Assembly: GCF_009914755.1 (NCBI RefSeq)
Contig: NC_060931.1
Source: the human T2T-CHM13v2.0 reference genome, Homo sapiens
Strand: one strand, 5' to 3'
Length of the DNA: 64,000 bases
Part shown: positions 1-48,678 of the stretch, piece by piece
Layout: each line of letters begins with the position of its first letter
How positions within the stretch are numbered: position 1 is the first letter of the stretch
The notes under the pieces: generated by a model
The model's database searches: none
The model's input: the letters and a program-made list of their open reading frames with translations, nothing else
What the model was told of the DNA's origin: nothing
Position numbers and translations under genes: made by a program

Positions 1-459
1 CTAAAAAATGTTTTGTGAAAATTTAAGCATTATATAAAAGGTATTATTTGGATGCAAATAAATACAAAACACTTGAAACTGCTTTATGACAATAATCTCT
101 CAGGGATTCATGTATGATTTTTATTGCACACACTGTCATCACTTTAAACAACTTCCAACATTTCACATCCTACCTGTTAATAGAAGCAACTTTTGTCTTA
201 ATTACTCAAGTATTTATACTCATAGAACTTTAATGATCTATTCATTAATTTAAAAAATTATTAAGGATATAACTGTGTGCTACGAAGAAGGCCATGAAGC
301 TAGGAGTATCCTAGTATAATTGAATGTTGAAGACAAACATAATCAACTAAAATAAATGTGATAAGTGATATAACGAAGAACATTTTACTATGAGACCCAA
401 GAAAAAGAAATAATTAATGTTTTCCTTCCTTCTCCTATTTTGTCCTTTACTTCAATTTA

Positions 460-768
460 TTTATTTATTATTAATATTATTATTTTTTGAGACGGAGTTT
501 CACTCTTGTTGCCAACCTGGAGTGCAGTGGCGTGATCTCAGCTCACTGCACACTCCGCTTTCTGGTTTCAAGCGATTCTCCTGCCTCAGCCTCCTGAGTA
601 GCTGGGACTACAGTCACACACCACCACGCCCGGCTAATTTTTGTATTTTTAGTAGAGTTGGGGTTTCACCATGTTGGCCAGACTGGTCTCGAACTCCTGA
701 CCTTGTGATCCGCCAGCCTCTGCCTCCCAAAGAGCTGGGATTACAGGCGTGAGCCACCGCGCTCGGCC
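460..768 (-). mobile_element. AluS with (TTAT)-type tail
   Basis: Alu dimer in reverse; degenerate TSD ctttacttcaattt/ctttgcatcaattt. Confidence 0.95.
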
Positions 769-2504
769 CTTTGCATCAATTTCTACAGCTTGTTTTCTTT
801 GCCTGGACTTTACAAGTCTTACCTTGTTCTGCCTTCAGATATTTGTGTGGTCTCATTCTGGTGTGCCAGTAGCTAAAAATCCATGATTTGCTCTCATCCC
901 ACTCCTGTTGTTCATCTCCTCTTATCTGGGGTCACATATCTCTTCGTGATTGCATTCTGATCCCCAGTACTTAGCATGTGCGTAACAACTCTGCCTCTGC
1001 TTTCCCAGGCTGTTGATGGGGTGCTGTTCATGCCTCAGAAAAATGCATTGTAAGTTAAATTATTAAAGATTTTAAATATAGGAAAAAAGTAAGCAAACAT
1101 AAGGAACAAAAAGGAAAGAACATGTATTCTAATCCATTATTTATTATACAATTAAGAAATTTGGAAACTTTAGATTACACTGCTTTTAGAGATGGAGATG
1201 TAGTAAGTCTTTTACTCTTTACAAAATACATGTGTTAGCAATTTTGGGAAGAATAGTAACTCACCCGAACAGTGTAATGTGAATATGTCACTTACTAGAG
1301 GAAAGAAGGCACTTGAAAAACATCTCTAAACCGTATAAAAACAATTACATCATAATGATGAAAACCCAAGGAATTTTTTTAGAAAACATTACCAGGGCTA
1401 ATAACAAAGTAGAGCCACATGTCATTTATCTTCCCTTTGTGTCTGTGTGAGAATTCTAGAGTTATATTTGTACATAGCATGGAAAAATGAGAGGCTAGTT
1501 TATCAACTAGTTCATTTTTAAAAGTCTAACACATCCTAGGTATAGGTGAACTGTCCTCCTGCCAATGTATTGCACATTTGTGCCCAGATCCAGCATAGGG
1601 TATGTTTGCCATTTACAAACGTTTATGTCTTAAGAGAGGAAATATGAAGAGCAAAACAGTGCATGCTGGAGAGAGAAAGCTGATACAAATATAAATGAAA
1701 CAATAATTGGAAAAATTGAGAAACTACTCATTTTCTAAATTACTCATGTATTTTCCTAGAATTTAAGTCTTTTAATTTTTGATAAATCCCAATGTGAGAC
1801 AAGATAAGTATTAGTGATGGTATGAGTAATTAATATCTGTTATATAATATTCATTTTCATAGTGGAAGAAATAAAATAAAGGTTGTGATGATTGTTGATT
1901 ATTTTTTCTAGAGGGGTTGTCAGGGAAAGAAATTGCTTTTTTTCATTCTCTCTTTCCACTAAGAAAGTTCAACTATTAATTTAGGCACATACAATAATTA
2001 CTCCATTCTAAAATGCCAAAAAGGTAATTTAAGAGACTTAAAACTGAAAAGTTTAAGATAGTCACACTGAACTATATTAAAAAATCCACAGGGTGGTTGG
2101 AACTAGGCCTTATATTAAAGAGGCTAAAAATTGCAATAAGACCACAGGCTTTAAATATGGCTTTAAACTGTGAAAGGTGAAACTAGAATGAATAAAATCC
2201 TATAAATTTAAATCAAAAGAAAGAAACAAACTGAAATTAAAGTTATTATACAAGAATATGGTGGCCTGGATCTAGTGAACATATAGTAAAGATAAAACAG
2301 AATATTTCTGAAAAATCCTGGAAAATCTTTTGGGCTAACCTGAAAACAGTATATTTGAAACTATTTTTAAAATGCAGTGATACTAGAAATATTTTAGAAT
2401 CATATGTAGGTTTGGCATTAATGGATAAAGACTAGAGGATTTTCATCCTCATAAAACATTTGGACATACAGTATTTGATTAAAATGATGACACATTTTTT
2501 TGTA

Positions 2505-2599
2505 AAATATGATTAATTTTGGCATAATAATTTATTATGTTAATATTTCAAATATATACTTTGCATTTAATAAACCACTGAATAACTGAAGATAATGGC
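2505..2599 (-). terminator. ZPBP: ZPBP short 3'UTR with poly(A) signals
   Basis: Minus-strand AATAAA at 2531-2536 and ATTAAA at 2566-2571. The cleavage position (~2505-2520) is inferred. Confidence 0.75.
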
Positions 2600-2694
2600 T
2601 TATAAGCACGTTTTTGCTCCATACACCAGGCTGCTATTGCATTGAAGGCAATGAATTCCATCACGGGGGTTATATGATCCAGGGCTGCAGATCA
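2600..2694 (-). CDS. ZPBP: ZPBP terminal coding exon (CDS part, 95 bp)
   Basis: Acceptor tactcttttttcacAG at 2695-2710. G+TG completes Val, then [30 protein letters not shown] and TAA (2600-2602), the ZPBP C-terminus. Confidence 0.97.
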
Positions 2695-2729
2695 CTGTGA
2701 AAAAAGAGTAAGTTAATAAGTAGTATTTT

Positions 2730-2960
2730 CCTAATACACATAATATAAAATTTCCAATCTCAATTCTTTTAAGTGTATAGTTCAGTAGTATTAAGCATAT
2801 TCACACTGTTGTGCAACAAATCTGCAGAACTTTTTCATCTTGCAAAACTGCAACTCTATACCCATTTCCCTGTTTCCCCAGCTGTTGGCAACCACCATTC
2901 TACCTTTGGTTTCCATGAGTTTCACTAATCTACATACCTCGTGTAAGTGGAATCATACAC
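2730..2960 (-). mobile_element. L1M 3'-end fragment abutting the ZPBP acceptor region
   Basis: aagtgtatagttcagtagtattaagcatattcacactgttgtgcaac...ggcaaccaccattctac is a typical L1MB 3'UTR in reverse. Confidence 0.8.
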
Positions 2961-2979
2961 TGAAAGTTTTAATTATTTA

Positions 2980-3207
2980 CTCTGAGATTCCTGTAAGGAG
3001 CGTGAAACCTGGATCCCTTGCATGCATGCACAGTTGACAATAGGGTTGGTACTCCTATGAGAATCTAATGCCATTGATGACCTGACAGGAAGCAGAGCTC
3101 AGGCCATAATGCTCACTTGCCCGCCACTCACCTTCTATTTTGCAGTCTGGTTCCTAACAGGACATAGACCAGTACTGTTCCCTGGCCTGGGGGTTGGGGA
3201 CCCCTGC
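2980..3207 (+). mobile_element. MER1-type hAT/Charlie MITE, partial
   Basis: taaggagcgtgaaacctggatccc...ctcctatgagaatctaatgcc...ggttggggacccctg; homologous to 49581-49917. Confidence 0.85.
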
Positions 3208-3329
3208 TTTAAGTTATATAGCAGAAGCCACAAGAGGTCAACACTACAGGAAGAACCAAATGTGCTTCACACATGGCCATAACTGTGTATTTTAGGTGGA
3301 AAGAGACTGCATTTTTTTCTAATAATCTC

Positions 3330-3670
3330 CTGATTTCAAGTCCTATTTCTACCACTTGCTAAATGTGCAATTTTGAAAATATTAATCTAATTTAATTCAG
3401 TTTGATCATCCCTAATATGAGGATAATGAAATCATGAATTTGATTAAATGATGACATCTACTACTGCCTGACAGAATAGAAAGAAACCAAGGTCAGATAC
3501 CATCTCTGTCACAGATTATCTTTGGTAACTTAGGTAAAACAGTCAACTCTCTTAGTTCCACTATCCTTATTTTGTAAAACAGGTGCAATACAATAATAAC
3601 CAATTTCATAACATTAATGTATTAAAAAATCACACAGTGTATCATAGGCACTCAATAAATGCTTAACTTT
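3330..3670 (+). mobile_element. MIR fragments
   Basis: ttcaagtcctatttctaccacttgct, ttttgtaaaacaggtgcaatacaat, cataggcactcaataaatgct. Confidence 0.6.
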
Positions 3671-4797
3671 ATGCACTCAGGAACACTGCCTCTACCAACC
3701 TGTTCTATTGTGGATAAGGGGATGGCTATCAGGTGGTGCCATCAAGCCTCATAATTGGGCTGGGGTCTTTGATTATTCTGTTCCTCTTTTTCCTGTTGCA
3801 AATGTGGTTGCCCAAGGATCTCAGAATATGTTAATAGCACATCTATGGAATGTTTATTATGGGCCATCAAAGAAAATTCTTTTTCTAGCATCATGATTCA
3901 ATGATACAAGTTAATATTTGGATCTAGTTCACACTATATTTTAAATTTTATATCATTTACTTTTAAAATGTATTTTTCCAAATTGGGAAATATTTTACCA
4001 TTTTTTAGAGGAAATATTTGCCATTCTATGTTCCAAAGAGTTCCTCAGTTTTAATAGATGTTTTATTTGGGAGAATAATGTTTCAGATGGAAAAAAGTTT
4101 AATTAAACAAAGTAGATTTATTTCCTCCAGTGATAACAACAGTATTTGAATTGGTAATGTACACAGTAAGCTTCCAATGATGTTTCTCAAAAGTGTGTTG
4201 ATTATGGCACATTTTCTCTCAAAGCACACCTTAATATTTATTGAAGAACAAATATGGAAATGTTGAGCAAAGATACTAAAAGTGTTAAATCATTACACAT
4301 GCAGAAGAGAAATCTGCATGCAGTCTTTACACATATGCTTTATATTGATTATCAAAAATAGAAATGACACCAGCATAAAATCATCTAAATACAAGCTTAA
4401 ATAAATATGACTTTCTAGTTACTATTCTTAGAATTAATAAACCGTCACAGTATGACATGTGTAACATCATATAGTTCCTATGTGTAGCACTCCTTCCTAG
4501 TATACATACTAAAATATTTTTTCTCTGTTAAGTAGAACTGGGGAAAAATGTTAAAATGTTATTTAAATTTAAAGTACAAAATTAGCCAACTCTTTAAACA
4601 AAGAGACAAAGAAGGATTTGTGACTAATCAGTATTGACATAAAAAACATGATAAAGTACAAAAAAAAGTTATGAACTTTGGATAGGAAATAATTTCTTAA
4701 AAAGGAAAATGCACTAACCATAATGTAAAACATTTAATATTAAAATTAAGAAATTAATTTTAAAAATCATAAAAGTAACGATTGTGTAAAATAAAAC

Positions 4798-5339: not shown

Positions 5340-7274
5340 CAAGGAATAAAATTCGGAAAAAAATTGTAGCTATATAATCAACAGAAGAATATTATTCAGA
5401 ATATATAATTAACTCATATAAATCAATTAGAAAAACAAATAAAAACTAATTTAAAAGTAGGCACCAAGGAGAAAATACAAATGGTGAACTAATGGCTTTT
5501 TTTGTTGAGCCAACAAAAGAGTACTCAAATTAGATCTAGGAAATCCAGATAGACATCAGAATGTAATACATTGAGAGTGAGATGCAAGAACTTCCAGTGA
5601 ACTAGGAAGCTCCAGGCCCTCATTCCCCCATGAAAACATTAAATAAGTAACTAGAGACTGGCTAAAATAACTTTACAAGAGCTATGGAAACCAGCCATAG
5701 GTCTACAGCAATTAAGTTCTGAATCCAAAAAAAAAAAAGCTGTGTTTGAAATGATTAAAAAAAAAAAATTGTGGCATTTTTACTCACCACTGTCCCACCT
5801 CCTTCCCCATGCAGCTCTGGAAGATTCCATCCTACACAACTGAGAGAACAGAGCAGACTAAATTTATGACCTTCTGACCTGTATGAGAGTCCCATGCCTG
5901 TGGGATTGGTTTGTGATGGGTGCAGTTCCTGAAAACCACAAGGAGACAACAAAGGGGAACATAGGTGGGGCAAGAGATTTCCTGAAAAATATAACATAAC
6001 ATGTAAAGCCCAGAGAAGCAGCAGGAGTGAGCCTCTTAGAGAAGAAGATATCTAAAAGCAGCCATGTATACAGAGGATTCAGAAAAAAAGCACATGCTCA
6101 GGACCAAGCATAAGAAAAGATGTTCCACATCACTAAGCGTAAGAGAAAAACAAATCAAAGCTACAATGAGATATCAGCTCACAACCATTAGCACAGACAC
6201 TATTTAAAAAACAGAAAATATTTATTGGTCATGATGTGGAGAAATTGAAATCATACTTGGTGGAAATGTAAAATGGTGAAGCTACTATGAAAAACAATAC
6301 AGAGCTTCCTCAAAAAATTAAAAATAGAATTACCATGTGATCAGTTAATCCTGCTTTTGGGTATATATCCAAAAGTATTGAAAGCAGGATCTCTAGGAAG
6401 TATTGCATATCCATGCACCCATGTCCATTGTCACATTATTCACAATGGCCAAAAGGTGGAAACAACTCAGATTTTCACTGAGAGATGGGAAAAGTGTTAG
6501 ATCTGATAAATTCAGCAAAGTAGTAGGATACAAAATTGATACACAAAAATCAGTTATGTTTGTGTACATTAACAATAAACAATCCAAAAGGGAAATTAGG
6601 AAAATAGTTCCATTTAAAATACAATCAAATAATATTTAGGCATAAACTCAACCAAGGTGGTGGAATAATGTATACTATAAATTACCAAAAATTGTTGAAA
6701 AAAATTCAAGAAGACACAAATAAATAGAAAGACATATCATGTTCATGGGTTGGAACACAATATTAAAGTGTTAACACCACACAAAGCTATTGATTCAATG
6801 CAATCTCTATCAAAATCCCAATAACATTTTTTTTTGTGAAAAACAAAAATCTTTCTCAAGAGACTCCAAATAGCCAAAATATTGAAAAAGAAAAACAAAG
6901 TTGAAAGTCTCACATTTCCTGATTTTAAAACTTACTACAAAGCTGCAATAATCAAAACAGTGTGGTGCTGCCAAAAAGACAGACATACAGACTAATGGAA
7001 CAGAATAGAAAGCCCAGTAATAAATCCTTGCATACAGGGACAAATGATTTTCACAAAGGATGCCAAGATCATTCAATGGGGAAAGAACAATTTTTTTCAC
7101 CCAATGGTATTGGGAAAACTGGATATACACAGACAACTAAATGAAGTTGGATTCTTAGACCATATACAAAAATTAACTCAAAATGAATCAAGGACTTAAG
7201 AGCTAAAACTGTAGAACATTTAGAAGATGACACTGGGGAAAAGCTTCAGGATACTGCATTTTACAATGATTTCT
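5340..7274 (+). mobile_element. Patchwork of old L1M fragments; 6490-7274 is the ORF2 3' part hosting the L1-GNL2 insert
   Basis: L1 ORF2 motifs (caaaattgatacacaaaaatcagtt, aaacttactacaaagctgcaataatcaaaacag). Confidence 0.85.
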
Positions 7275-7275
7275 C

Positions 7276-9600
7276 TTTTTTTGCATATTTTTGTATAATA
7301 CACAACCTTTTAAACGTTACTGCTAATATCTGAATTTTTGTGTTTCTGCTTCAGTCCCTCTGAGTCATTGGTCTTCTTTTTGTTCCCGCTTGTATTTTTC
7401 ACATTGTGTGTTTCATAGTAGTGCACACAAATTTTTTTGGATTGTTGCTGCTGTACTGCTCACTTCCATTCCTTAGATGTAAGCATCCTGCAAGTTTTAC
7501 TTGAATATTCCTCTTCCCTCTGTGTTCTGCTTATTTCCTTTTTTGGTAAATGCTGTGTAGCATCTGCATCTTCTTCAGATATTTTTCTCTGCTCTTCATG
7601 TTTTTCAAATATCTTTTCACTTAGTACCTTGGATATTCTGACTCCTGAAAACTTTTTAGCTTTAGCTTTGTCTAAAAACTTCTGATATTTAGCAATATTC
7701 TCATCTAGAGCTTTAATAATGGCTTTGGTGTGATTTTTCCATATGTTCTTCCTCAGATTCCTAGTAAGACTCTTCATCATCTCTTGCTTCTGCTCCCCTT
7801 CTTCAATAGAAAAGCTCTCAAGCTCTTTCTCCAGATATGACATATCCACAGGAGCGAGGTCATCCCCAGAAGACTGAGGCACCACACTGAGTTTGCCAAA
7901 GTTTTGCTGAACCCATGCACAAGAATTGGTTGCATCTCTGAGTTAGCATCCAGTGACTATTCTCTTCTTTTTCTTTTTCAATCACAGATTCTGTCACTTC
8001 ACCTACAGTTTTGGTATTCATTCTGTCACTTCCTCTTCTGGATTGTTCTGGGTTGCTTCTGTGGCAACTTCCACGGATTAGGAGGGTGAAAGCTGGGGGG
8101 CCACAGGTGACTCTCCATTAAGCAGCTTGACAAAGAAAGGAATCCAGCCCTCTCAGCCAGTCATTGAGGACTATCCACCCACAGTCAGTAAGTCAGTAAG
8201 TTACTCCACCCTTTAGTAACTTCCCAGTCCAGAAAGTTAGCTTCTCAATAAAGTCCTCAGCATTCTCCCAAGAATTAATCTTTTATGTCTTGCTGATATA
8301 TTCTGGCTTTACTTGTTCAAGTACAACATCAATGCAGTCTTCAGGGGTCTTAATTTTTCCTACTTAACTCCTTTTAGCACAATGTCTGTCTTCAAGTCCT
8401 CAGAAGAGTATACCAAACCTGAACAGTCAATGAAGCATAACCAACATATCAAGGTAATGTATTTCCAGATATTTCATCTACAATGGGGACCACATTGCAA
8501 ACTTTCTTGGAACACTATGTTTATATCACAGACCTCTTGCCAACATTTAGATAGCCAATGAACCCAACACTCATCTGTTTCTTGTCAGTGTACAACTTTC
8601 CAAACTGCCACAGAAGCTGAATAAATGCTCCTTTGCGAAAGGGGTCAGTAAGACTTGCATGGAAAGCAAGTGTTGGCTAATCCAAGGAGAGGACAGCAAC
8701 CCATCATTTTGTTGCCCAGGTTGCAACAAGGTCACATTTGTTATGTACAAACATAACGTGTTCCCAGGGTTTATTCTTTTTCAAGTATGGCTCAAGGCTC
8801 AATGTGACGGGAACGGGTACCCATTGGATCTCTAGCCAGCAACCAGAACTACAACATCTGGTGAATCTATAACCCTGGAGAGCTCATCCTATATTCCTTT
8901 GGACTGTCCCTTTTTACATGTCTCTTCTTGTGCTTCATTTATCCCACCAGTGTCTTCAGTTACTGACTCATGATCTTTTCTAGAAACTGGTCTAGCTCTC
9001 AGTGGACATTTCAGCATTTTCTAGAAAAGACTGCATATCACTTGCAAATAAATTTGGTTGCTTCCTTTGTGACATAGGGCCAAATGTAGTTTTAAAACTT
9101 TCAGTATCAGGAACGTGCACCTTTGAGTTGAGGCTGGATTCAATCTTAGAGAAGAGACATTGGTAACTTGCTTTGTTTCATGACAACTGTGTATGAATCC
9201 TTCATAACTGTATCCACTTCCTCTTGAAGTTTTTGTAATCATGACTGCTTAATCACATGTGCATTTTCAAACTATTTGATATTTGGCTGCACTTTTGCCA
9301 CTGTGCCAGAAGCCACCTTTGATTGATATTCCAGGGGCTTAATGATCTTACCACAGCTGTTCTTGTATTTCTTTTGCCTGTACATATTCAGGCCTGAGAC
9401 TGTGGCCTGGTCCCTCATGTTTTGACCTCCTGCTTCCTGCTCTCAGTCTGGGTTTGTGCTGGCATCGAAGAGGTTGATGATGCACTGTCCTTTTGTACTT
9501 GGGCTTTACCATCTTGGCGATGAGATGGGAACTGAAGTGCTAAGTCCAGCTTATGTTGGGTAAATGAATTCAGAACTTCCCAGGCCTGGCTGAAGTGACC
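7276..9600 (-). pseudogene. GNL2P1: Processed pseudogene of nucleolar GTPase GNL2, full length with 5'UTR and residual poly(A)
   Basis: ATG at 9510-9512 (MVKPKYK...), intronless. It has an NKCD motif (~8730) and a decayed G1 GYLNVGKR (~8545). ORF 7460-7885 contains KALDENIAKYQKFLDKAKAKKFS. Stop at 7317-7319, A tail at 7276-7282, multiple frameshifts. The symbol is from recall of a chr7p GNL2 retrocopy. Confidence 0.92.
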
Positions 9601-9602
9601 TG

Positions 9603-12600
9603 TTTTATTACAGCTTCAATCTCAGTAGTTGTTATTGGTCTCCTCAGTTGTTAGATTTTTTCATAGTTCAATCTTGGTAGGCTGTATCTGTCTGGGAATG
9701 TCTTCTAGGTTTTCCAATTTATTGGCATATAGTTGCTCCTAGAAGCCTCTAATGATCCTTTGAATTTCCATGGCAGCAGACGCAATGTCTACTGTTTTAT
9801 CTGATTTTATTTTCATTTATTTTATCTTCTTTTTTTCTTAGTCTGGCTAAAGGTTTGTTGATTTTGTTTATCTTTTTTAAAAATAACTTTTCATTTCATT
9901 GATTTTTGTATTTTTTTTATTTCATTTATTTCTGCTCTGATCTTTATTCCTTCTACTAATTTGGGGTTTGGTTTGCCCTTGTTTTTCTAGTTCTTTAAGA
10001 TGTATCAATAGGTTGCTAATTTGAAGTTTTTCTGCTTTTGTTGATGTAGGTGCCTATTGCAATAAACTTCCCTGTACTGCTTTTGCTGTATCCCACAGGT
10101 TTAGGTACATCAGGTTTCCATTTTCATTTGTTTCAAGACATTTTAAAATTTCCTTCTTAATTTCTTCATTGAGCCACTGGTCATTCAGGAGCATATTGTT
10201 TAATTTCCAGGTGTTCATATAGTTTCAAAATTCCTCTTGTTATTCATTTCTAGTTTTATTCCATTGTGGTCAGAGAAGATACTTGATATAATTTCAATTT
10301 TTTGACTTTTTAAAGATTTGATTTGTGGCCTAACATATGGCCTATCTTTGAGGATTATCCATGAGCTGAGGAGAAGAATGTGTATTCTGCAACTGTGGGA
10401 TGAAATGTTCTGTGAATATGGCTATTAGGTTCATTTGTTGTATAGTAGAGATTAAGCCTGATATTTCTTTGTTGATTTTCTGTCTGGATAATTTGTCCAA
10501 TGCTGCACTGAAAGTAGGGTGTTAAAGTCTCCAGCTATTATTGTATAGGGGTCTCTCTCTTTAGCTCTAATAATATGTGCTTTATATATCTGGATGCTCC
10601 TGTGTTAGATTCATATATATTAAGAATTATTATATCCTCTTGCTGAATTGATTTCTTTATTCAATGACCTTGTCTGTTTTTATGCTTTTTGTCTTGAAAT
10701 CTATTTTTTTTTTCCTGATATAAGTATAGCTACTCCTGCTCTTTTCTGGTTTTGCATGGAACTTTTTTTAACTCTTTATTTTCAGCCTATGTGTGTGTCC
10801 GTCTGGGTGTAGTGTGTTTCATGTAGGCAACAGATTGTTGGGTCTTGTGTTTTTATCCATTCAGCTCTCTTTGTCTCTTTACTGGAGAGTTTAGTGCATT
10901 TATATTCCATGTTATTACTCATAAGGAATTACTTTTGCCATTTTGTCACTTGTTTTCTGGTTGTTTTGTGGTCTTTTCCTTCTTTCTTTTCTTCCTGTAT
11001 TCCTTTTAGTGAAGGTGATTTTCTCTGGTGGTATATGTACATATCCGTTGTGTTTTTTGATTTGTGGTTACCATAGCCTTGCAAATAATATCACGTAACC
11101 TGTTATTTTAAACTGACAACAACTTAATGCTGATTGCATAAACAAACAAGCAAAGAGAAAACTAGTAAAAAACTCTACAGTTTAACTTCATCCCCCCCTT
11201 TTTAGCTTTTTGTTGTTTCTATTTATATCTTAGTATACAGTGTTGTGAAAAGTTGTTGTAGTTATTATTTTTATAGGTTCATCTTTCAGTCTTTCTACTC
11301 GAGATATGAGTGTTTATACACCACTATTGCAGTATTATAATATTCTGTGTTTTTTTGTGTATTTACTTCAGATGATTTCTTATTGTTCATTAACATCCCT
11401 TTCCTTCAGATTGAAGAACTCTCCTTAGCATTTCTTATAGGCAAGGTCTGGTGGTGATGAAATCCCTCAGCTTTTGTTTTTCTGGGGAAGTCTTTATTTC
11501 TTCTCCATGTTTGAAGAATATTTTTGCCAGATATACTATTCTAGGATACAAATTTTTTCTTTTTTTTCCTTCAGCAATTTAAATATGTCATACCACTCTC
11601 TCCTGGCCTATAAGGTTTCCACTGAGAAGTCTGCTCACAAATGTACTGGAGCTCCATTGTATGTTGTTTCTTTTCTTTTGCTGCTTTTAGGATCCATTCT
11701 TTATCCTTGACCTTTGGGAGGTTGACTATTAAATGTCTTGAGGTAGTCTCACCTGGGTTAAAGTTGCTTGGTGTTCTATACCTTTCTTGTCCTTGAATAC
11801 TGATACCTTTTTCTAGGTTTGGAAACTTCTCTGTTACCATCCCTTTGAATAACCTTTGTACCCCAACCTCTCACTCTCCCTTCTCCTTAAGGCCAATAAC
11901 TCTTAGATTTGCCCTTTAGAGGCTATTTTCTAGATCTTCTAGACATGCTTCATCTTTTTGTCTTTTGTCTTTTCTGACTGTGTATTTCCAAATAGCCTAC
12001 CTTGAAGCTCACTAATTCTTTATTTTGCCTGATAAATTCTGCTGTTAAGAGTCTCTGATGCATTCTTCAATATATCAATTGCATTTTTCAGCTCCAGAAC
12101 TTCTGCTTGATGCTTTTTAATTATTTCAATTTCTTTGTTAAATTTATCTGACAGGATTCTGAATTCCTTCTCTGTGTTATCTTGAATTCTGTTAAGCTTC
12201 CTCAAAATAGCTATTATGAATTCTCCATCTGAAAGGTTACACATCTGTTTCCCAAGATTGATCACCGGTGCCCTATTTAGTTCATTTGATGAGGTCATGT
12301 TTTCCTGGATGATCTTGATGCTTGTGGATGTTTGTTGATGTCTTGGCATTGAAGAGTCAGGTATTTATTGTGGTCTTCGCAGTCTGGGCTTTTATGTACC
12401 CATCCTCCCTGGGAAGGCCTTCTAGGTATTCAAAGAGACTTCAGTGTTGTGATTGAAGTCTTTGGTCACTGCAGCTATATCTGCATTAGGGGGCTCTCCA
12501 AGCCTAGTAACACTGTGGCTCCTGCAGACTTGCAGATGCACTGCCTTGGAGGTCTTGGGTAAGATTCAGAAGAATTCCCTGGATTACCAGGCAGAGACTC

Positions 12601-13398
12601 TTGTTCTCTTCTCTTATTTTCCTGCAAACAAACAGAGTCTCTCTGTGTGTGCTGAGCTGACTGGAACAAGAGGAGGGGTGAATCAGGCACCCTGTGGCAA
12701 CCACCACCTGTGACTGCACTGGGTCAGACCTGAAGCCAGCATAGCATTGGGTTTCACCCAAGGCTCATAGTCACCACTGCCTAACTACCGCTTATGTTCA
12801 CTGAAGACCCAAGGGCTCTACAATAAGCAGGTAGTGAGTCCAGCCAGGCTCATATCCTTCACTTCCTGTTGGTAAGTTTCTTCCAGCCCTAACTGTGTTC
12901 AGAGATGCCATCTGGGAACCAAGGACTGGAATCTACCTGGTCCTCTATTCTACAGCAGCAGAACTGGCACCAAAGCTTCAAGACAAAGTCTTTCCCACTC
13001 TTCACTCCCCTATTCTCAAGCATAGTAGTCTCTCTCTATGACCATCATTGCCCCAGGCCTGCAGCAAGTATTGCCTGGCTACCACCAATGTTCACTCGAG
13101 GCCCAAAGGCCCTTCAGTCAGCTTGTGGTGAATGCTGCCAGTTCTGAGTCTCTCCTTTCAAGGCAGTGGGCTACCCCCTAGCTCAGAGAAGGTCCAGAAA
13201 TCCTATCCAGGAGCGATGGCCTGGAACTGAAGACTCCAGGAGCCCACTTGTTGCTCTACTCCACAAAGCTGGTATCCAAGCTAATGCTTGATTCTTATGA
13301 AGGTGCTTTTTTGTGTGGACAGTTGTTCAATTTGGTGTTCCAGCAGGAGGGATAATCACTGGAGGGTTCTATTTGGCCATCTTACTCTGCCTTCTCCC
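9603..13398 (-). mobile_element. L1 (L1M/L1PB-age) 5' half: 5'UTR, ORF1, ORF2 endonuclease region
   Basis: Starts gggagaaggcagagtaagatggccaaatagaa. ORFs 12020-12349 and 11571-11840 are ORF1p-like (EKFPNLEK..RHLIVNLPKVKDKEWILKAAKEK). ORF2 ends at RPITTTEIEAVIK. Confidence 0.9.
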
Positions 13399-13403
13399 TG
13401 TTT

Positions 13404-14900
13404 TGATTTCTTTTACGTGATACCAAAAGCACAAGAAATAAAGATTGGGTTCTATAAAAATAAAACCTTTTGTGTATCAAAGGACATTATCAAATATAGT
13501 GAAAAGGCAACCCACAATATAGGAGAAAATATTTGCAAATCACATGTCTGATAAGTGGTTAACATTTTTTTTTTGAATTTTAAACTCCTATAATTCAACA
13601 AACAACCCAATTAAAAAATGGGAAGAAGACTTGCATAGGTGTTTCTCCAAAGAAGATACACAAATGGTCAATAAGTATATAAACAGATGCTCAACACTAC
13701 TAACCATTAGGGAAATGCAACTCAAAACCATAATGAGATACCACTTCAAACACAATGAGACGACAAGTATCAAGAAAATGGAAAATAACTAGTGTTGGTG
13801 AGGACATGGAGAAATTGTGAGCCTTGTGCATTGCTGATGGGAATGTAAAATGGTATAGTGGCTATGGAAAATCAGTATGGTGGCTCTTCAAGAAATTAAA
13901 ATAGAATTGCCATATGAATCAGCAATCCCATTTCTGGGTATATGCTCAAAAGAATTGAAAGAAGTGTCTCAAAGAGACATTTGTATGCATTATGGACTTA
14001 ACGTTTGTGTCCCTCCAAATTGATATATTAAAGCCCTAATCTCCAATGAGGCAATGTTGGAGATAAGGCCCCTAAGGAGATAAATTTAAATGAGGTAATA
14101 AAGGCAGGGCCCTTATCTGATAAGATTAATCTCCTTATAAGAAAACAGACCAGAAACACTGCTACCTCTTTCTCCATGAATATGCACCAAGGAAAAGCCA
14201 TGTAAGGACAATACCAGAAGGTGGCTGTCTGAAATCAAGAAGAGAGCCCTCTCCAGAAACTGATCTTGGACTTCTAGCATCCAGAATTGTAAGAAAATAA
14301 ATTTCTGTTGTTTAAGCCACCCATTCTATGAAATTTTATTATGGCAGCCTAATATAGTATATATCTAAAATAACTGAAAGCAGGATCTTGCAGGTATTTG
14401 CTTACCTGTGTTTAATGCAGCATTATTCACAATAGCCAACAGCTGGATGTAGCCCAATGCCCATCAGTGAATAAATGAAAAACAAAATGTGTGTATAGGT
14501 ACAATAGAATGTTATTCAGCCTTAAAAAGGAAATTCTGACACATGCTATAACATGGATGAATCTTAAAAATATTGTGCTAAGTGAAATAAGCCAGTCATA
14601 AAAAGACAAATACTATATGATTCCACTTATATGAGGTATCTAGAGTAGTCACATTTATAGAGAAAAAATGTAGAATGGTGGTTTTCAGGTGTTGGAGGGA
14701 GAAGGGAATGGGGAGTTATTATTTAATGGGTATACAATTTCAGTCTAGAAGTTGAAAAAAATTCTAGAGATGGATGGTGATGATGATTTCACAACAGTGG
14801 GACTGAAGTTAATGCCACTGTGTATTTAAATTATACATTTAAATACACTTAAAATGTTAAATTTTATGTTATGTACATTTTACCATAATAAAAAGTGATA
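13404..14900 (+). mobile_element. Continuation and 3' end of the host L1M (interrupted by an LTR)
   Basis: Resumes tgatttcttttacgtgataccaaaagcacaag, collinear with the sequence ending at 7274; L1MB-like 3'UTR. Confidence 0.85.
13990..14355 (+). mobile_element. MaLR solo LTR (MST/MLT1A-like)
   Basis: tatggacttaacgtttgtgtccc...ttggacttctagcatccagaattgtaagaaaataaatttctgttgtttaagccaccc. Confidence 0.85.
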
Positions 14901-35956: not shown

Positions 35957-38900
35957 GCCAGGCATGGTGGTGCATGCCTGTAGTTCCAGCTACTCAGGGG
36001 GCTGAGGTGAGAGGATCACTTGAGCCCAGGGGGTTGAGGATTCAGTGAGCCACGATTGTGTCACTGTAGTCCAGCCTCACTGACAAGGCAAGACCCCATA
36101 TCAATAAAAAAATTTGAAAACCCACAAAAGAAACAGATAATACCTTGAGACAAGTGAAAATGCAAACACAACATACAAAGACTTATGCCATCCAGCAAAA
36201 GCAGTGGTAAGAGGGATATTTAGAGCTGGAAACACATATATGAAACATGAGAAAAGACTGCTAATCAGTAAACCGATTTACACCTTAAGGAACCAGGAAA
36301 AGGAGAGGAAACTGAACACAGAATCACCATAATGAGGGAAATAAATTAGGAAATAGAAAAATAATTTAAAAGAAACAAAGGTTGGTTCTTTGAGAAGATC
36401 AAAAAAGGGAACAAACTTTAGCTAAATTGACTAAAAATGAAAGAGAGGACCCAAATTACTAAAAATCATAATTTAAAAGTGAGGATATTACTATTGATTT
36501 TATACAAACAGAAAGAAAGATAACAAAATACTATGAACAACTGTATGCCAACAAATTGGATAACTTAGATGATACTAAAAACTTTATAGAAATATATACT
36601 CTATAAAAAATGACTCAAAAGAAACAGAAAATGTGAACAGATTTATAACTAGTACAGCAATTGAATCAGTAATCAAAAACTTTCTTATAAAGAAGAGCCC
36701 AGCAAGATGGTTTCACTAGTAATTTCAAACAAACATTTAAAGAAGTAACACAAATCCTTTACAAACAATCTGAATGTTTGCAGAGGAAGGAACTTCCTAA
36801 CTCATTCTATGAGGCCAATATGATCATGACACCCAAGCCAGGAAAAGACATTACAAGAAAACTACAGACCAATATCCCTTATTATTACTGATCCAAAATT
36901 CAATAAAATATTAGAAAACAAAATTCAATAACATACTAAAGGACTATATACAATGACCAAGAAGGTGTTATTTTCAGAATGTATGAATGGTTTAACATGA
37001 AAAAAAATCAATGTAATACACTACGTTAGCAGAATGAAAAGGAAAAAAACTACAAGCTCATGTCAATTGATGCAGAAAAACCACTTGTCCAATGTCAACC
37101 CCTTTTTTCTGATAAAAATATTCAACAAAGTATGAATAGAATAATACTCTCTCATCATGGTAAAGACTTTATATGAAAAATTCACAGCTAACATCACATT
37201 CAATTATGAAATGATGAAAGCATTTCCCCTAAGATTAATAACAGGGCAAGGGTGTCTACTATCCTCACTTATATTTAACATAATATTGAAAGTTCTAGCC
37301 AGAGAAATTGGGCAAGAAAAATAAATAAAAGACATCCATCTGGAAAGGAAGCAAAATTATCTGTTCACAGATGACATTATCTTTTTTGTATAAATCCTCA
37401 AGATTCTAAAAAAAGCAAAATCTTTTATATCTAATACATATTCAGTAAAGGTGCAACATACAAAATCAACTTGCAACAACAGCTGCATTTCTGTACATTA
37501 GCAATGAATAATCCAATGGAATTTAAGAAAACTCCATTTACAGTAACATTAAAAAGAATACAAGGCTTAGGAATAAATGTATGCAAGGAGGCAAAAGGCT
37601 TGTACACTGAAATCTATAACATACTGCTGAAACAAATTAACTCATAAATAACTGGAAAGGCATTCTGTGGTCATGGATTGGTAGACTTAATATTATTAAG
37701 ATGGCAATACTACCCAAAGCAATCTACAGATTCAGTATTGTCCCTATCAAAATGTCAAGCATATTTTTGCAAAAAATAGGAAACCTCATCCTAAAATTCA
37801 CATGGAATCTCAACGTACCACAAATAGAACAATCTTAGAAAAGAAAAAAGTTGAAGAATCCACATTTCCTGATGTCTAAACGTATTACAAAGCTACAGTA
37901 ATAAAAACAGTGTGATAATGGCATAAAGGCAGACATACAGACCAATGGAACAGAATAGAGGGCCCAGAAAAAAAAAACCACTTGTATAAATTGTCAACTG
38001 ATTTTGACAAGGAAGCTGAGACTATTCCATGGGTAAAAGATTGTCTTTTCAACAAATGGTGCTGTCAAAACTGGATATCCACATGCAAATGAATGAAGTT
38101 GGACCCTTAACTTACACAGCAAACAAGTAATTTAAACTAAGTAACACACCTAAGCTAAAACTTTAAAACTCTTAGAAAGCCTAATGACACTGGGGGAAAG
38201 TCTGATGACACTGAATTTGGCAACTACTCCTTGGATATGGTAACAAAACCATAGACAACAAAAGAAAAAATCTGGACTTAACTCCAATTGGACAAATTCA
38301 GTGTCATCAGACTTTCCCCCAGAAAAGTCTGATGACACTGAATTTGGCAATTACTGCTTGGATATGGTAACAAAACCATAGGCAACAAAAGAAAAAAAAA
38401 TGGACTTAACAAAAATTTATAGCTTTGTGCACTTAGGACATTATCAAGACAGTAAAAATACAACTCACAGAATGGGGAGAAATATTTGAAAAATCACACA
38501 TCTGATAAGCTATTAATGTCTAGAATATATAAAGAACTCCTAAAACTCAATAACAAAAAAGGCAACCTAATTTAAAATTGGACAAAAGACTTAAATAGAC
38601 ATTTCTCCAAAGAAGATATACAAATGGCCAATAAACACATGAAAAGATGCTCAATATCAATTAGTCATTAGAGAAATGCAAATCAAGTCCACAATGAGGA
38701 ACACTTCACATTCACTAAGACGGCTAGTGTAAAAAACAAACAAGTAAGTGTTGGTTTGGAAATGGAGAAACTGGAAGGCTTGTATATTGCTGGTGGTAAT
38801 ATAAAATGGTGCAGCTGTTGTGGAAAAGTTTGACCTCTCATAGAATGACCATATGATTCAGTAATTCCACTCCTAGGTATATATGCAAATATTTGAAAGT

Positions 38901-48500: not shown

Positions 48501-48678
48501 CACAGCACTCAGGACATTTTGGATGTTGCTGGACATTCATTCCATATCCTGGAAAGCAGCGATTAATCCAAACCATTTGGAGAGTACCTTCAATATAGTA
48601 TATTTGAGGTAATTGTTCTGCACGTCTGCCAAGAATTTCTACTTGTTGATTAAAAAATCTCTCTATGAGATTTTTAGC
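48501..48678 (-). CDS. ZPBP: ZPBP penultimate coding exon (178 bp)
   Basis: Minus strand reads tttatattttAG|GCT AAA AAT...TGC TGT G|GTatgt and translates [59 protein letters not shown] plus 1 nt. Recognised as human ZPBP; the phase matches the terminal exon. Confidence 0.97.

What the first reader, a model, noticed from the sequence alone, without database searches (positions are those of the whole stretch)
7267..13414. Single-TSD 6.1-kb chimeric retrocopy: L1 5' half fused to a full-length GNL2 mRNA copy
Seen: on the minus strand the order is L1 5' end (13398), ORF1, ORF2 up to ...gaagctgtaataaaa, then directly the GNL2 5'UTR (9600), CDS and A tail (7276). One repeat (tgatttct at 7267, tgatttctttt at 13404) brackets the whole unit. 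The older plus-strand L1 is collinear across it, and the empty site reads TTTT/AC, like an L1 endonuclease site. No L1 3' half follows the GNL2 tail. Known: TPRT template switching yields chimeras, usually with the cellular RNA 5' and L1 3' (U6/L1); here the order is reversed. Inference: either ORF2p copied GNL2 mRNA to its 5' end and jumped onto an L1 RNA, or a source L1 with an embedded GNL2 retrocopy was transcribed from the L1 promoter and re-mobilised. Either route delivers a retrogene together with its own promoter.
Basis: partly seen in the sequence, partly recalled or inferred. Interest (0 to 1): 0.8.

Follow-up and report, generated by a model that had tools for sequence, protein, structure and literature searches.

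The report
L1 5' half fused to GNL2 retrocopy
An old, dead insertion in a ZPBP intron joins the front 3.8 kb of an L1 retrotransposon directly to a complete copy of the GNL2 mRNA inside one target-site duplication, a rare reversed-order example of how the L1 copying machinery can stitch two RNAs together.

Summary
On the minus strand, 13398-9603 is an L1 from its true 5' end through ORF1 and the endonuclease part of ORF2. It stops about 170 nt before the reverse-transcriptase domain. With no filler, 9602/9600-7283 follows: an intronless copy of all 16 GNL2 exons, ending at the parent's poly(A) site with a 5-7 A tail. The same 8 bases (11 with one mismatch) flank the whole unit. Both copies align to the same positions of an older plus-strand L1, so this is a real target-site duplication at TTTT/AC. 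The two halves are equally old: L1 terminal branch 0.12-0.14, GNL2 copy about 0.13-0.15 substitutions per site. T2T-CHM13 holds no second full GNL2 retrocopy or junction copy.

The most likely route (0.55) is one TPRT event: GNL2 mRNA copied to its 5' end, then a jump onto L1 RNA.

The retrogene-with-promoter idea has no support: 14 stops, 24 frameshifts and near-even codon-position decay. This is a variant of known chimeric retrocopies and of modest interest.

The parts
13404..13414 (-). Target-site duplication, copy at the 5' end of the unit. It is 11 nt; the first 8 nt on the plus strand (13404-13411) are identical to 7267-7274.
   Evidence: Both copies align to the same positions of related old L1 copies.
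13399..13403 (-). Five bases between the TSD and the L1 5' terminus. Their origin is unassigned: untemplated, or part of the L1 5' end.
12301..13398 (-). L1 5'UTR, starting at the family's 5' terminus. The boundary with ORF1 is approximate.
   Evidence: 5 of 5 other copies begin homology here with unrelated upstream flanks; collinear with full-length-5' copies.
11406..12300 (-). L1 ORF1 remnant, broken by stops. It contains the RRM-like and C-terminal domains. Bounds are approximate.
   Evidence: PF02994 E 8e-12 on 11574-11870; PF17490 E 4.8e-11 on 11438-11578.
9603..10950 (-). L1 ORF2 5' part (endonuclease and linker), broken by stops. It ends right after an AATAAA hexamer, about 170 nt upstream of where RVT_1 begins in related copies. 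No RT is present. The start is approximate.
9600..9603 (-). The L1/GNL2 junction. The last L1 base is 9603. Bases 9602-9601 fit the parent GNL2 if a CpG transition is allowed. Unambiguous GNL2 starts at 9600. There is no filler and no A-tract.
   Evidence: and direct reading
7283..9602 (-). GNL2 processed retrocopy (GNL2P1). The 5'UTR runs to 9513, the CDS register is 9512-7317 and the 3'UTR runs to 7283. All 16 parent exons are present without introns. It carries 14 in-frame stops and 24 frameshifting indels.
   Evidence: NGP1NT; PDB 6lss Nucleolar GTP-binding protein 2, E 3.9e-41
7275..7282 (-). Short A tail: 7 A, then one G that may be a mutated TSD base. It starts exactly at the parent's cleavage site, downstream of ATTAAA.
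7267..7274 (-). Target-site duplication, copy at the 3' end of the unit. It is 8 nt exact, and extends to 7277 as 11 nt with one mismatch.
6510..7274 (+). Left arm of the older host L1 (ORF2 3' region, sense on the plus strand).
13404..13961 (+). Right arm of the same older host L1, collinear with the left arm.

Best explanation
The unit was made by one L1-mediated target-primed reverse transcription event.
1. L1 endonuclease nicked the plus strand of an older L1 at TTTT/AC.
2. The T-run primed on the poly(A) of a mature GNL2 mRNA (trans-mobilisation).
3. Reverse transcriptase copied that mRNA to, or within about 2 nt of, its 5' end.
4. Instead of finishing, it jumped onto an L1 RNA. It landed inside ORF2, just 5' of the RT-coding region, or at the 3' end of a broken L1 RNA ending there.
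5. It then ran 3.8 kb to the L1 5' terminus.
6. Second-strand nicking 8-11 bp away produced the single TSD.

Shown: the anatomy, the true TSD, the equal ages and the absence of any other copy. Inferred: the jump itself and its RNA acceptor. The product was non-functional and has decayed neutrally.
For: - One TSD brackets both parts. Both copies map to the same host-L1 positions, and the site reads TTTT/AC.
- The GNL2 part is a mature mRNA copy. It has 16 of 16 exons and no introns. It ends at the parent's ATTAAA-directed cleavage site plus A's. It starts where homology to parent exon 1 starts, which is also the start of the RefSeq pseudogene annotation given with the finding.
- The L1 part reaches the family's 5' terminus. 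It joins GNL2 head-to-tail in the same orientation with no filler, poly(A) or TSD remnant at the junction.
- The ages agree. The L1 terminal branch is 0.123 (JC, star fit on 6 comparison copies) or 0.142 (GTR ML). The GNL2 copy versus parent is 0.162 in total, and 0.14-0.15 at codon positions 1 and 2, which mostly reflect the pseudogene branch.
- No other locus carries the junction. Only the window's own locus spans it among 40 scored of 173 candidates.
- No second full GNL2 retrocopy exists. All 12 candidates were scored: the window itself, the parent exons, and one 124-nt 75% hit on C9 with no L1 match to the unit in its 2.1 kb locus.
- Template switching during LINE reverse transcription is the accepted origin of same-orientation, TSD-flanked chimeras (PMC2104539, Background section read).
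Against: - Nothing in the sequence shows the jump itself. Three other routes give the identical product.
- The landing is internal in L1 RNA. The chimeras described in print have full-length 5' parts, meaning a landing at the acceptor's 3' end (PMC2104539).
- No clear microhomology is visible at the junction after about 13-15% decay.
- Whether 9602/9600 is the real GNL2 transcription start was not checked against transcript data. The pseudogene annotation could end there only because homology ends there.
- The age test has a resolution of about 0.02-0.03 substitutions per site. It cannot exclude two events a few million years apart.
Confidence: 0.55

Rival explanations
1. Two events at one site. 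A full-length L1 inserted first and created the TSD. Later, L1 endonuclease nicked the T-run complementary to that L1's A-tail and GNL2 mRNA was reverse-transcribed from there. The insertion resolved with a target-site deletion of about 2.5 kb that removed the L1 3' half. The product is L1 5' half - GNL2 - A tail, inside the first L1's TSD.
For: - The geometry reproduces every observed feature.
- It also explains why the GNL2 junction has no TSD of its own.
- Large target-site deletions accompanying L1-mediated insertions are documented (PMC4859970, passages read).
- The ages only require the L1 to be as old as or older than GNL2, which is compatible.
Against: - It needs three coincidences: an insertion exactly at the end of an A-tail, a kilobase-scale deletion ending inside the same element, and a host L1 that is 5'-complete.
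- The L1 is not measurably older than the GNL2 copy (0.123-0.142 versus about 0.13-0.15).
- My rough prior, from recalled frequencies and not computed, puts this route at least several-fold below a single template switch.
Confidence: 0.17
2. Re-mobilised source locus. A GNL2 retrocopy first landed in sense inside ORF2 of a promoter-active L1 elsewhere. A transcript from the L1 promoter was polyadenylated at the GNL2 signal. That chimeric, RT-less RNA was retrotransposed in trans to this site.
For: - The structure equals that of such a transcript.
- The RNA would encode ORF1p. 3'-truncated ORF1-containing L1 RNAs are thought to be mobilisable, as with HAL1 elements (PMC4859970 passage).
Against: - T2T-CHM13 holds no source: no second junction and no second full GNL2 retrocopy.
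- It needs two GNL2-containing retrotranspositions although only one is present in the genome.
- The L1 bases upstream of the junction do not start at a good endonuclease site. This rests on my reading and is weak evidence.
Confidence: 0.13
3. The chimera formed at the RNA level before reverse transcription. An L1 RNA 5' fragment was joined to GNL2 mRNA by RNA ligation (RtcB-type) or trans-splicing, and the fused RNA was retrotransposed.
For: - RNA ligation is an established route for U6/L1 chimeras, and trans-splicing has been proposed for mRNA/L1 chimeras (PMC13174262 passages; PMC6789731 seen as abstract only).
- Most related L1 copies have GT soon after the break point, and the parent has an AG just upstream of the homology start.
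Against: - The GNL2 part starts in exon 1 at or near the mRNA 5' end, not at an exon-exon boundary.
- A capped 5' end is not a ligase substrate.
- The putative donor and acceptor are out of register by 1-2 nt and lack good consensus or a polypyrimidine tract.
Confidence: 0.05
4. Three steps in place. A full-length L1 inserted. A GNL2 retrocopy then inserted in sense into its ORF2. Finally a deletion between the GNL2 A-tail and the L1 A-tail (two direct A-runs) removed the L1 3' half.
For: The product would be identical, and two direct poly(A) runs are a plausible slippage or recombination substrate (inference only).
Against: It needs three independent events at one site. No remnant of a GNL2-specific TSD or of the L1 3' end remains.
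Confidence: 0.05

Closest known systems
Bipartite chimeric retrogenes formed by template switching during LINE reverse transcription (Buzdin/Gogvadze class; features as listed in PMC2104539)
   Same: Two RNA copies are joined directly in the same orientation. There is one 3' A tail and one pair of short direct repeats, at an L1 endonuclease-type site.
   Different: In the described class the 5' part is a full-length RNA copy and the 3' part is 5'-truncated, and is mostly L1. Here the 3' part (GNL2 mRNA) is complete, and the 5' part (L1) is complete at its 5' end but lacks its 3' 40% or so. The switch therefore occurred at the end of the first template and landed inside the second.
U6/L1 and other '3'-LINE-1' chimeras (PMC13174262; PMC4476161, listing only)
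   Same: L1 sequence is fused to a non-L1 RNA copy in sense, flanked by a TSD.
   Different: The order is reversed. L1 is the 5' partner and supplies no 3' end or poly(A). The catalogue method of PMC13174262 looks at sequence 5' of L1, so it would not flag this locus. GNL2 and ZPBP have 0 occurrences in its 4 readable supplementary tables.
[quoted passage not shown]
   Same: It proposes the same order of templates: a cellular RNA first, then L1.
   Different: That case pairs a 247-nt lncRNA-derived piece with a 434-nt internal L1 fragment. Here a full 2.3-kb mRNA is followed by 3.8 kb of L1 up to its 5' terminus.
HAL1 (half-L1) non-autonomous elements (PMC4859970 passage; the Bao & Jurka paper was not seen)
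   Same: An L1 5' half with ORF1, no RT, and a foreign 3' end with poly(A).
   Different: HAL1 is a multi-copy family. This junction exists once in the genome.
L1 insertion-mediated (target-site) deletion
   Same: It would produce a retrocopy abutting a truncated pre-existing element without a TSD of its own.
   Different: It is a two-event history. It could not be tested here without orthologous loci.

Membership tests
Processed pseudogene (L1-mediated mRNA retrocopy) | Intronless copy of the spliced parent mRNA | tested here: met
   16 of 16 GNL2 exons (C1:37431567-37460658) are contiguous in 9600-7283. The parent exons splice to a 731-codon frame, equal to the PDB chain length.
Processed pseudogene (L1-mediated mRNA retrocopy) | Ends at the parent's polyadenylation site, followed by an A tail | tested here: met
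   Homology ends at the cleavage site downstream of ATTAAA. 7 A follow, whereas the parent genome continues with unrelated sequence.
Processed pseudogene (L1-mediated mRNA retrocopy) | Own target-site duplication flanking the retrocopy | tested here: not met
   The repeat partner of the 3' TSD lies beyond the L1 5' end at 13404-13414, not at the GNL2 5' end.
Bipartite chimeric retrogene (template-switch class, PMC2104539) | Parts directly joined in the same transcriptional orientation | tested here: met
   Both parts are on the minus strand. The junction is at 9603/9602 with no filler.
Bipartite chimeric retrogene (template-switch class, PMC2104539) | Flanked by short direct repeats | tested here: met
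   An 8-nt exact repeat, or 11 nt with one mismatch. Both copies map to one host-L1 position.
Bipartite chimeric retrogene (template-switch class, PMC2104539) | The 5' part is a full-length copy of its RNA | tested here: not met
   The L1 part has the 5' terminus but stops about 170 nt before RVT_1 and lacks the RT, the C-terminal region and the 3'UTR.
Bipartite chimeric retrogene (template-switch class, PMC2104539) | The 3' part is a 5'-truncated copy | tested here: not met
   GNL2 homology begins in exon 1, about 90 nt upstream of the ATG, at the start of the RefSeq pseudogene annotation. The true transcription start was not checked against transcript data.
LINE-1 element | 5'UTR, ORF1 domains, ORF2 endonuclease and reverse transcriptase | tested here: not met
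   The 5' terminus, the ORF1 RRM and CTD and the EN motif region are present (Pfam E 0.018, below the cut-off; BLASTP 13/19 identities to an EN fragment of a related copy). RT is absent. PDB searches with three short ORF2-region fragments (two from the endonuclease region, one across the junction) found no ORF2p.
HAL1-like non-autonomous family | Multiple dispersed copies sharing the L1/non-L1 junction | tested here: not met
   Only the window's own locus spans the junction (40 of 173 candidates scored).
L1 insertion-mediated deletion | The pre-insertion allele carries the sequence that is missing, here the L1 3' half | not testable with these tools
   No primate or outgroup genomes are on hand. 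The genome tool states that the window's genome has no relatives in its collection.

The most novel reading that the evidence does not exclude
L1 ORF2p, having copied a trans-mobilised cellular mRNA to its capped 5' end, can jump onto an internal site of L1 RNA and finish at the L1 5' terminus. This would create L1-5'-half/retrocopy fusions. Such fusions carry an L1 promoter and ORF1, resemble the founding structure of HAL1-type elements, and are invisible to chimera catalogues that only inspect sequence 5' of L1 3' ends.
Probability: 0.5. Interest if true: 0.45.

Novelty: new variant of a known kind. Interest (0 to 1): 0.35.

Why it matters
If this was a single event, the locus is a clean fossil of an end-of-template jump from an mRNA onto L1 RNA. 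That is the reverse of the usual U6/L1 order, and I found it in print only as one note in a supplementary table. Such events could seed promoter-bearing retrocopies or half-L1 elements, and current catalogues would undercount them. This particular copy has no sign of function: it is an intronic, neutrally decayed pseudogene.

Tried and rejected
- **Pfam and PDB on whole frames.** I re-ran them on stop-free pieces.
- **PDB with ORF2-region fragments.** Three short fragments, two from the endonuclease region and one across the junction, gave no ORF2p match. I therefore placed the break relative to RVT_1 through related L1 copies, not by ORF2p residue number.
- **First codon-position count.** The count used wrong frames for 3 of 16 exon alignments and is discarded. 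It was replaced by a splice-aware reconstruction of the parent reading frame (the first two attempts failed to give an open frame) and the count.
- **Splicing.** I considered splicing of an upstream L1 into GNL2 and rated it low. The GNL2 part includes exon 1 from its start. The parent promoter region shows no L1.
- **Premature polyadenylation.** I considered a prematurely polyadenylated L1 RNA as acceptor and rated it low. The break is directly after the AATAAA hexamer, not 10-30 nt downstream, and no A-tract separates the parts.
- **C9 hit.** The C9 hit to GNL2 (124 nt, 75%) has no match to the L1 part of the unit in its 2.1 kb locus, so it is not a source locus.
- **Papers not available.** Buzdin 2003 (PMC169886) and Buzdin 2004 (PMC11138840) are not held. 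They may list L1-5' chimeras that I could not see.
- **Supplements not available.** The three supplementary PDFs of PMC13174262 could not be read, and part 3 of 3 of its Table S5 was not read.
- **Searches for the gene name.** A search for GNL2P1 found only 2 expression-list papers (listing only).
- **No search for this architecture by name.** None of my five answered searches looked for an L1-5'/mRNA-3' chimera as such. The only case I met is the Table S5 note found while reading PMC13174262.

Full report
**What is there**

Read on the minus strand, the unit runs as follows.
- An 11-nt target copy at 13414-13404.
- Five unassigned bases at 13403-13399.
- An L1 from 13398. This is the family's real 5' terminus: five other genomic copies all begin homology at that point and have unrelated sequence upstream.

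The 3.8-kb L1 part is collinear with other 5'-complete copies of the family. An example is C11:119486732-119490627, which matches query 7-3795 at 76% (40 of 17,409 candidates scored). Its features are:
- ORF1 remnants with Pfam Transposase_22 (E 8e-12) and Tnp_22_dsRBD (E 4.8e-11).
- The endonuclease region. The Pfam hit is weak (Exo_endo_phos, E 0.018, below the cut-off). BLASTP gives 13 of 19 identities to the matching stretch of a related L1 copy, whose own Pfam endonuclease match is also below the cut-off (E 0.023).

**The junction**

Local alignments to 7 related L1 copies end at window 9603 in five, at 9601 in one and at 9597 in one. In those copies:
- ORF2 simply continues past this point.
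- Pfam RVT_1 begins about 170 nt further on.
- The endonuclease domain lies about 900-1550 nt upstream.

So the L1 part lacks the reverse transcriptase entirely. The break sits immediately after an AATAAA hexamer that is present in all 7 copies.

Homology to GNL2 exon 1 begins at 9600 with permissive BLAST. It begins at 9602 if one CpG-type transition is allowed (my reading). No filler, A-tract or duplicated target lies between the parts. After this much decay I could not call any microhomology.

**The GNL2 part**

- All 16 parent exons on C1 (37431567-37460658) are present without introns. Fifteen were found and the sixteenth.
- The parent exons splice into a 731-codon frame. That equals the length of human Nucleolar GTP-binding protein 2 in PDB 6lss, which a 160-aa piece of the window matches at E 3.9e-41.
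- The copy ends exactly at the parent's cleavage site downstream of ATTAAA, and 7 A follow.
- Against the parent it has 333 mismatches in 2,282 aligned columns (14.6%, JC 0.162). It also has 28 indel events, 24 indels that are not a multiple of three, and 14 in-frame stops.

**The duplication is real**

The flanks are an older L1 in sense on the plus strand. I fetched 29 related copies of that old L1 (40 of 2,531 candidates scored).
- 27 of them carry the right flank downstream of the left flank on the same strand, and 2 have no right-flank match.
- A few have larger gaps between the two matches (L027, L036, L043).
- In L030 and L044 the two alignments overlap by exactly the 8 duplicated bases.
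- An alignment of 15 of these copies with a modelled empty site is continuous through the junction.

The primer strand reads TTTT/AC. The left copy differs from the 11-nt right copy at one base.

**Ages**

- With six comparison copies, the window's L1 half has a terminal branch of 0.123 (JC, least-squares star fit) or 0.142 (GTR ML tree). The other copies have 0.10-0.15.
- For GNL2, divergence at codon positions 1, 2 and 3 is 12.8, 13.6 and 15.6% (JC 0.14, 0.15, 0.17). Most of the 0.162 therefore lies on the unconstrained pseudogene branch, about 0.13-0.15.
- The host L1 is older: 74-77% BLAST identity to its relatives, compared with about 80% pairwise identity for the inserted L1.

The two halves are therefore of indistinguishable age, at a resolution of about 0.02-0.03. 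With a recalled primate neutral rate of about 2e-9 per site per year, this is of the order of 50-70 million years. That figure is an inference, not a computed result.

**Uniqueness**

- Only the window's own locus spans the junction. The other 39 scored hits stop at query positions 56-61.
- The only other GNL2-like DNA outside the parent gene is a 124-nt, 75% match on C9. The unit's L1 part found no match in its 2.1 kb locus.

**How it arose**

The anatomy fits one TPRT event. GNL2 mRNA was primed at the nick and copied to its 5' end. The enzyme then switched to L1 RNA and ran to the L1 5' end. I rate this at 0.55.

It is a variant of the published template-switch chimeras, not a member in good standing. 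The defining list in PMC2104539 (Background section read) requires a full-length 5' part and a 5'-truncated 3' part. Both features are reversed here. Same orientation, direct junction and flanking repeats are met.

PMC13174262 catalogues "3'-LINE-1" chimeras, meaning sequence 5' of L1 (abstract and passages). [quoted passage not shown] That row pairs a 247-nt lncRNA piece with a 434-nt L1 fragment (parts 1 and 2 of 3 read). The order of templates has therefore been proposed once in print, on a much smaller case.

**Rivals**

- **Sequential insertion with deletion (0.17).** A full-length L1 inserts first. GNL2 TPRT then starts at its A-tail and deletes about 2.5 kb of target. Target-site deletions are documented (PMC4859970 passages).
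- **Re-mobilised L1-with-embedded-GNL2 transcript (0.13).** No source exists in this genome, and it needs two GNL2 retrotranspositions.
- **RNA ligation or trans-splicing (0.05).** This fits poorly with a GNL2 part that starts at the exon 1 start.
- **Three steps with a poly(A)-to-poly(A) deletion (0.05).**

Only orthologous loci can separate these, and no primate or outgroup genome was available.

**Function**

The "retrogene with its own promoter" idea has no support.
- The GNL2 frame would be a third cistron, 3.8 kb into the transcript.
- It is riddled with stops and frameshifts.
- It shows no codon-position signature of constraint.
- GNL2P1 appears in the searched literature only in two expression lists (listing only).

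**Verdict**

A composite, reversed-order chimera is well supported. Its origin in a single event is probable but not proven. It is a new variant of a known kind and of modest interest.

Noticed in passing
window 9603-9608 and loci L002-L008: The L1 break lies directly after an AATAAA hexamer in ORF2 that is present in 7 of 7 related L1 copies. Cleavage at such a signal would be expected 10-30 nt downstream, so its link to the break is unclear.
   Followed up: partly
window 6106-6393 versus 13673-13970: A stretch upstream of the left flank is 70% identical, on the same strand, to a stretch downstream of the right flank. The host region may hold two fragments of the same old L1 region, or an old duplication.
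   Followed up: no
window 37440-38899: This is another copy of the same old L1 region as the host element. It matches both flanks of the unit at 68-70% identity.
   Followed up: no
L057 (G000:C9:9077800-9079900), locus positions 968-1089: A 124-nt, 75% match to the lysine-rich 3' end of the GNL2 coding region. The unit's L1 part found no match in this 2.1 kb locus. It may be a heavily truncated old GNL2 retrocopy or a low-complexity match.
   Followed up: partly
window 7267-13414 relative to ZPBP: The whole unit lies in a ZPBP intron, between exons at 2513-2694 and 48501-48678, on the same strand as the gene (annotation supplied with the finding). It therefore places L1 and GNL2 poly(A) signals in sense inside that intron.
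   Followed up: no
parent GNL2, third codon positions: The excess divergence at third over second codon positions is only about 0.02-0.03. This is less than I would expect for roughly neutral synonymous change on the parent branch over the same time. I have not explained it.
   Followed up: no
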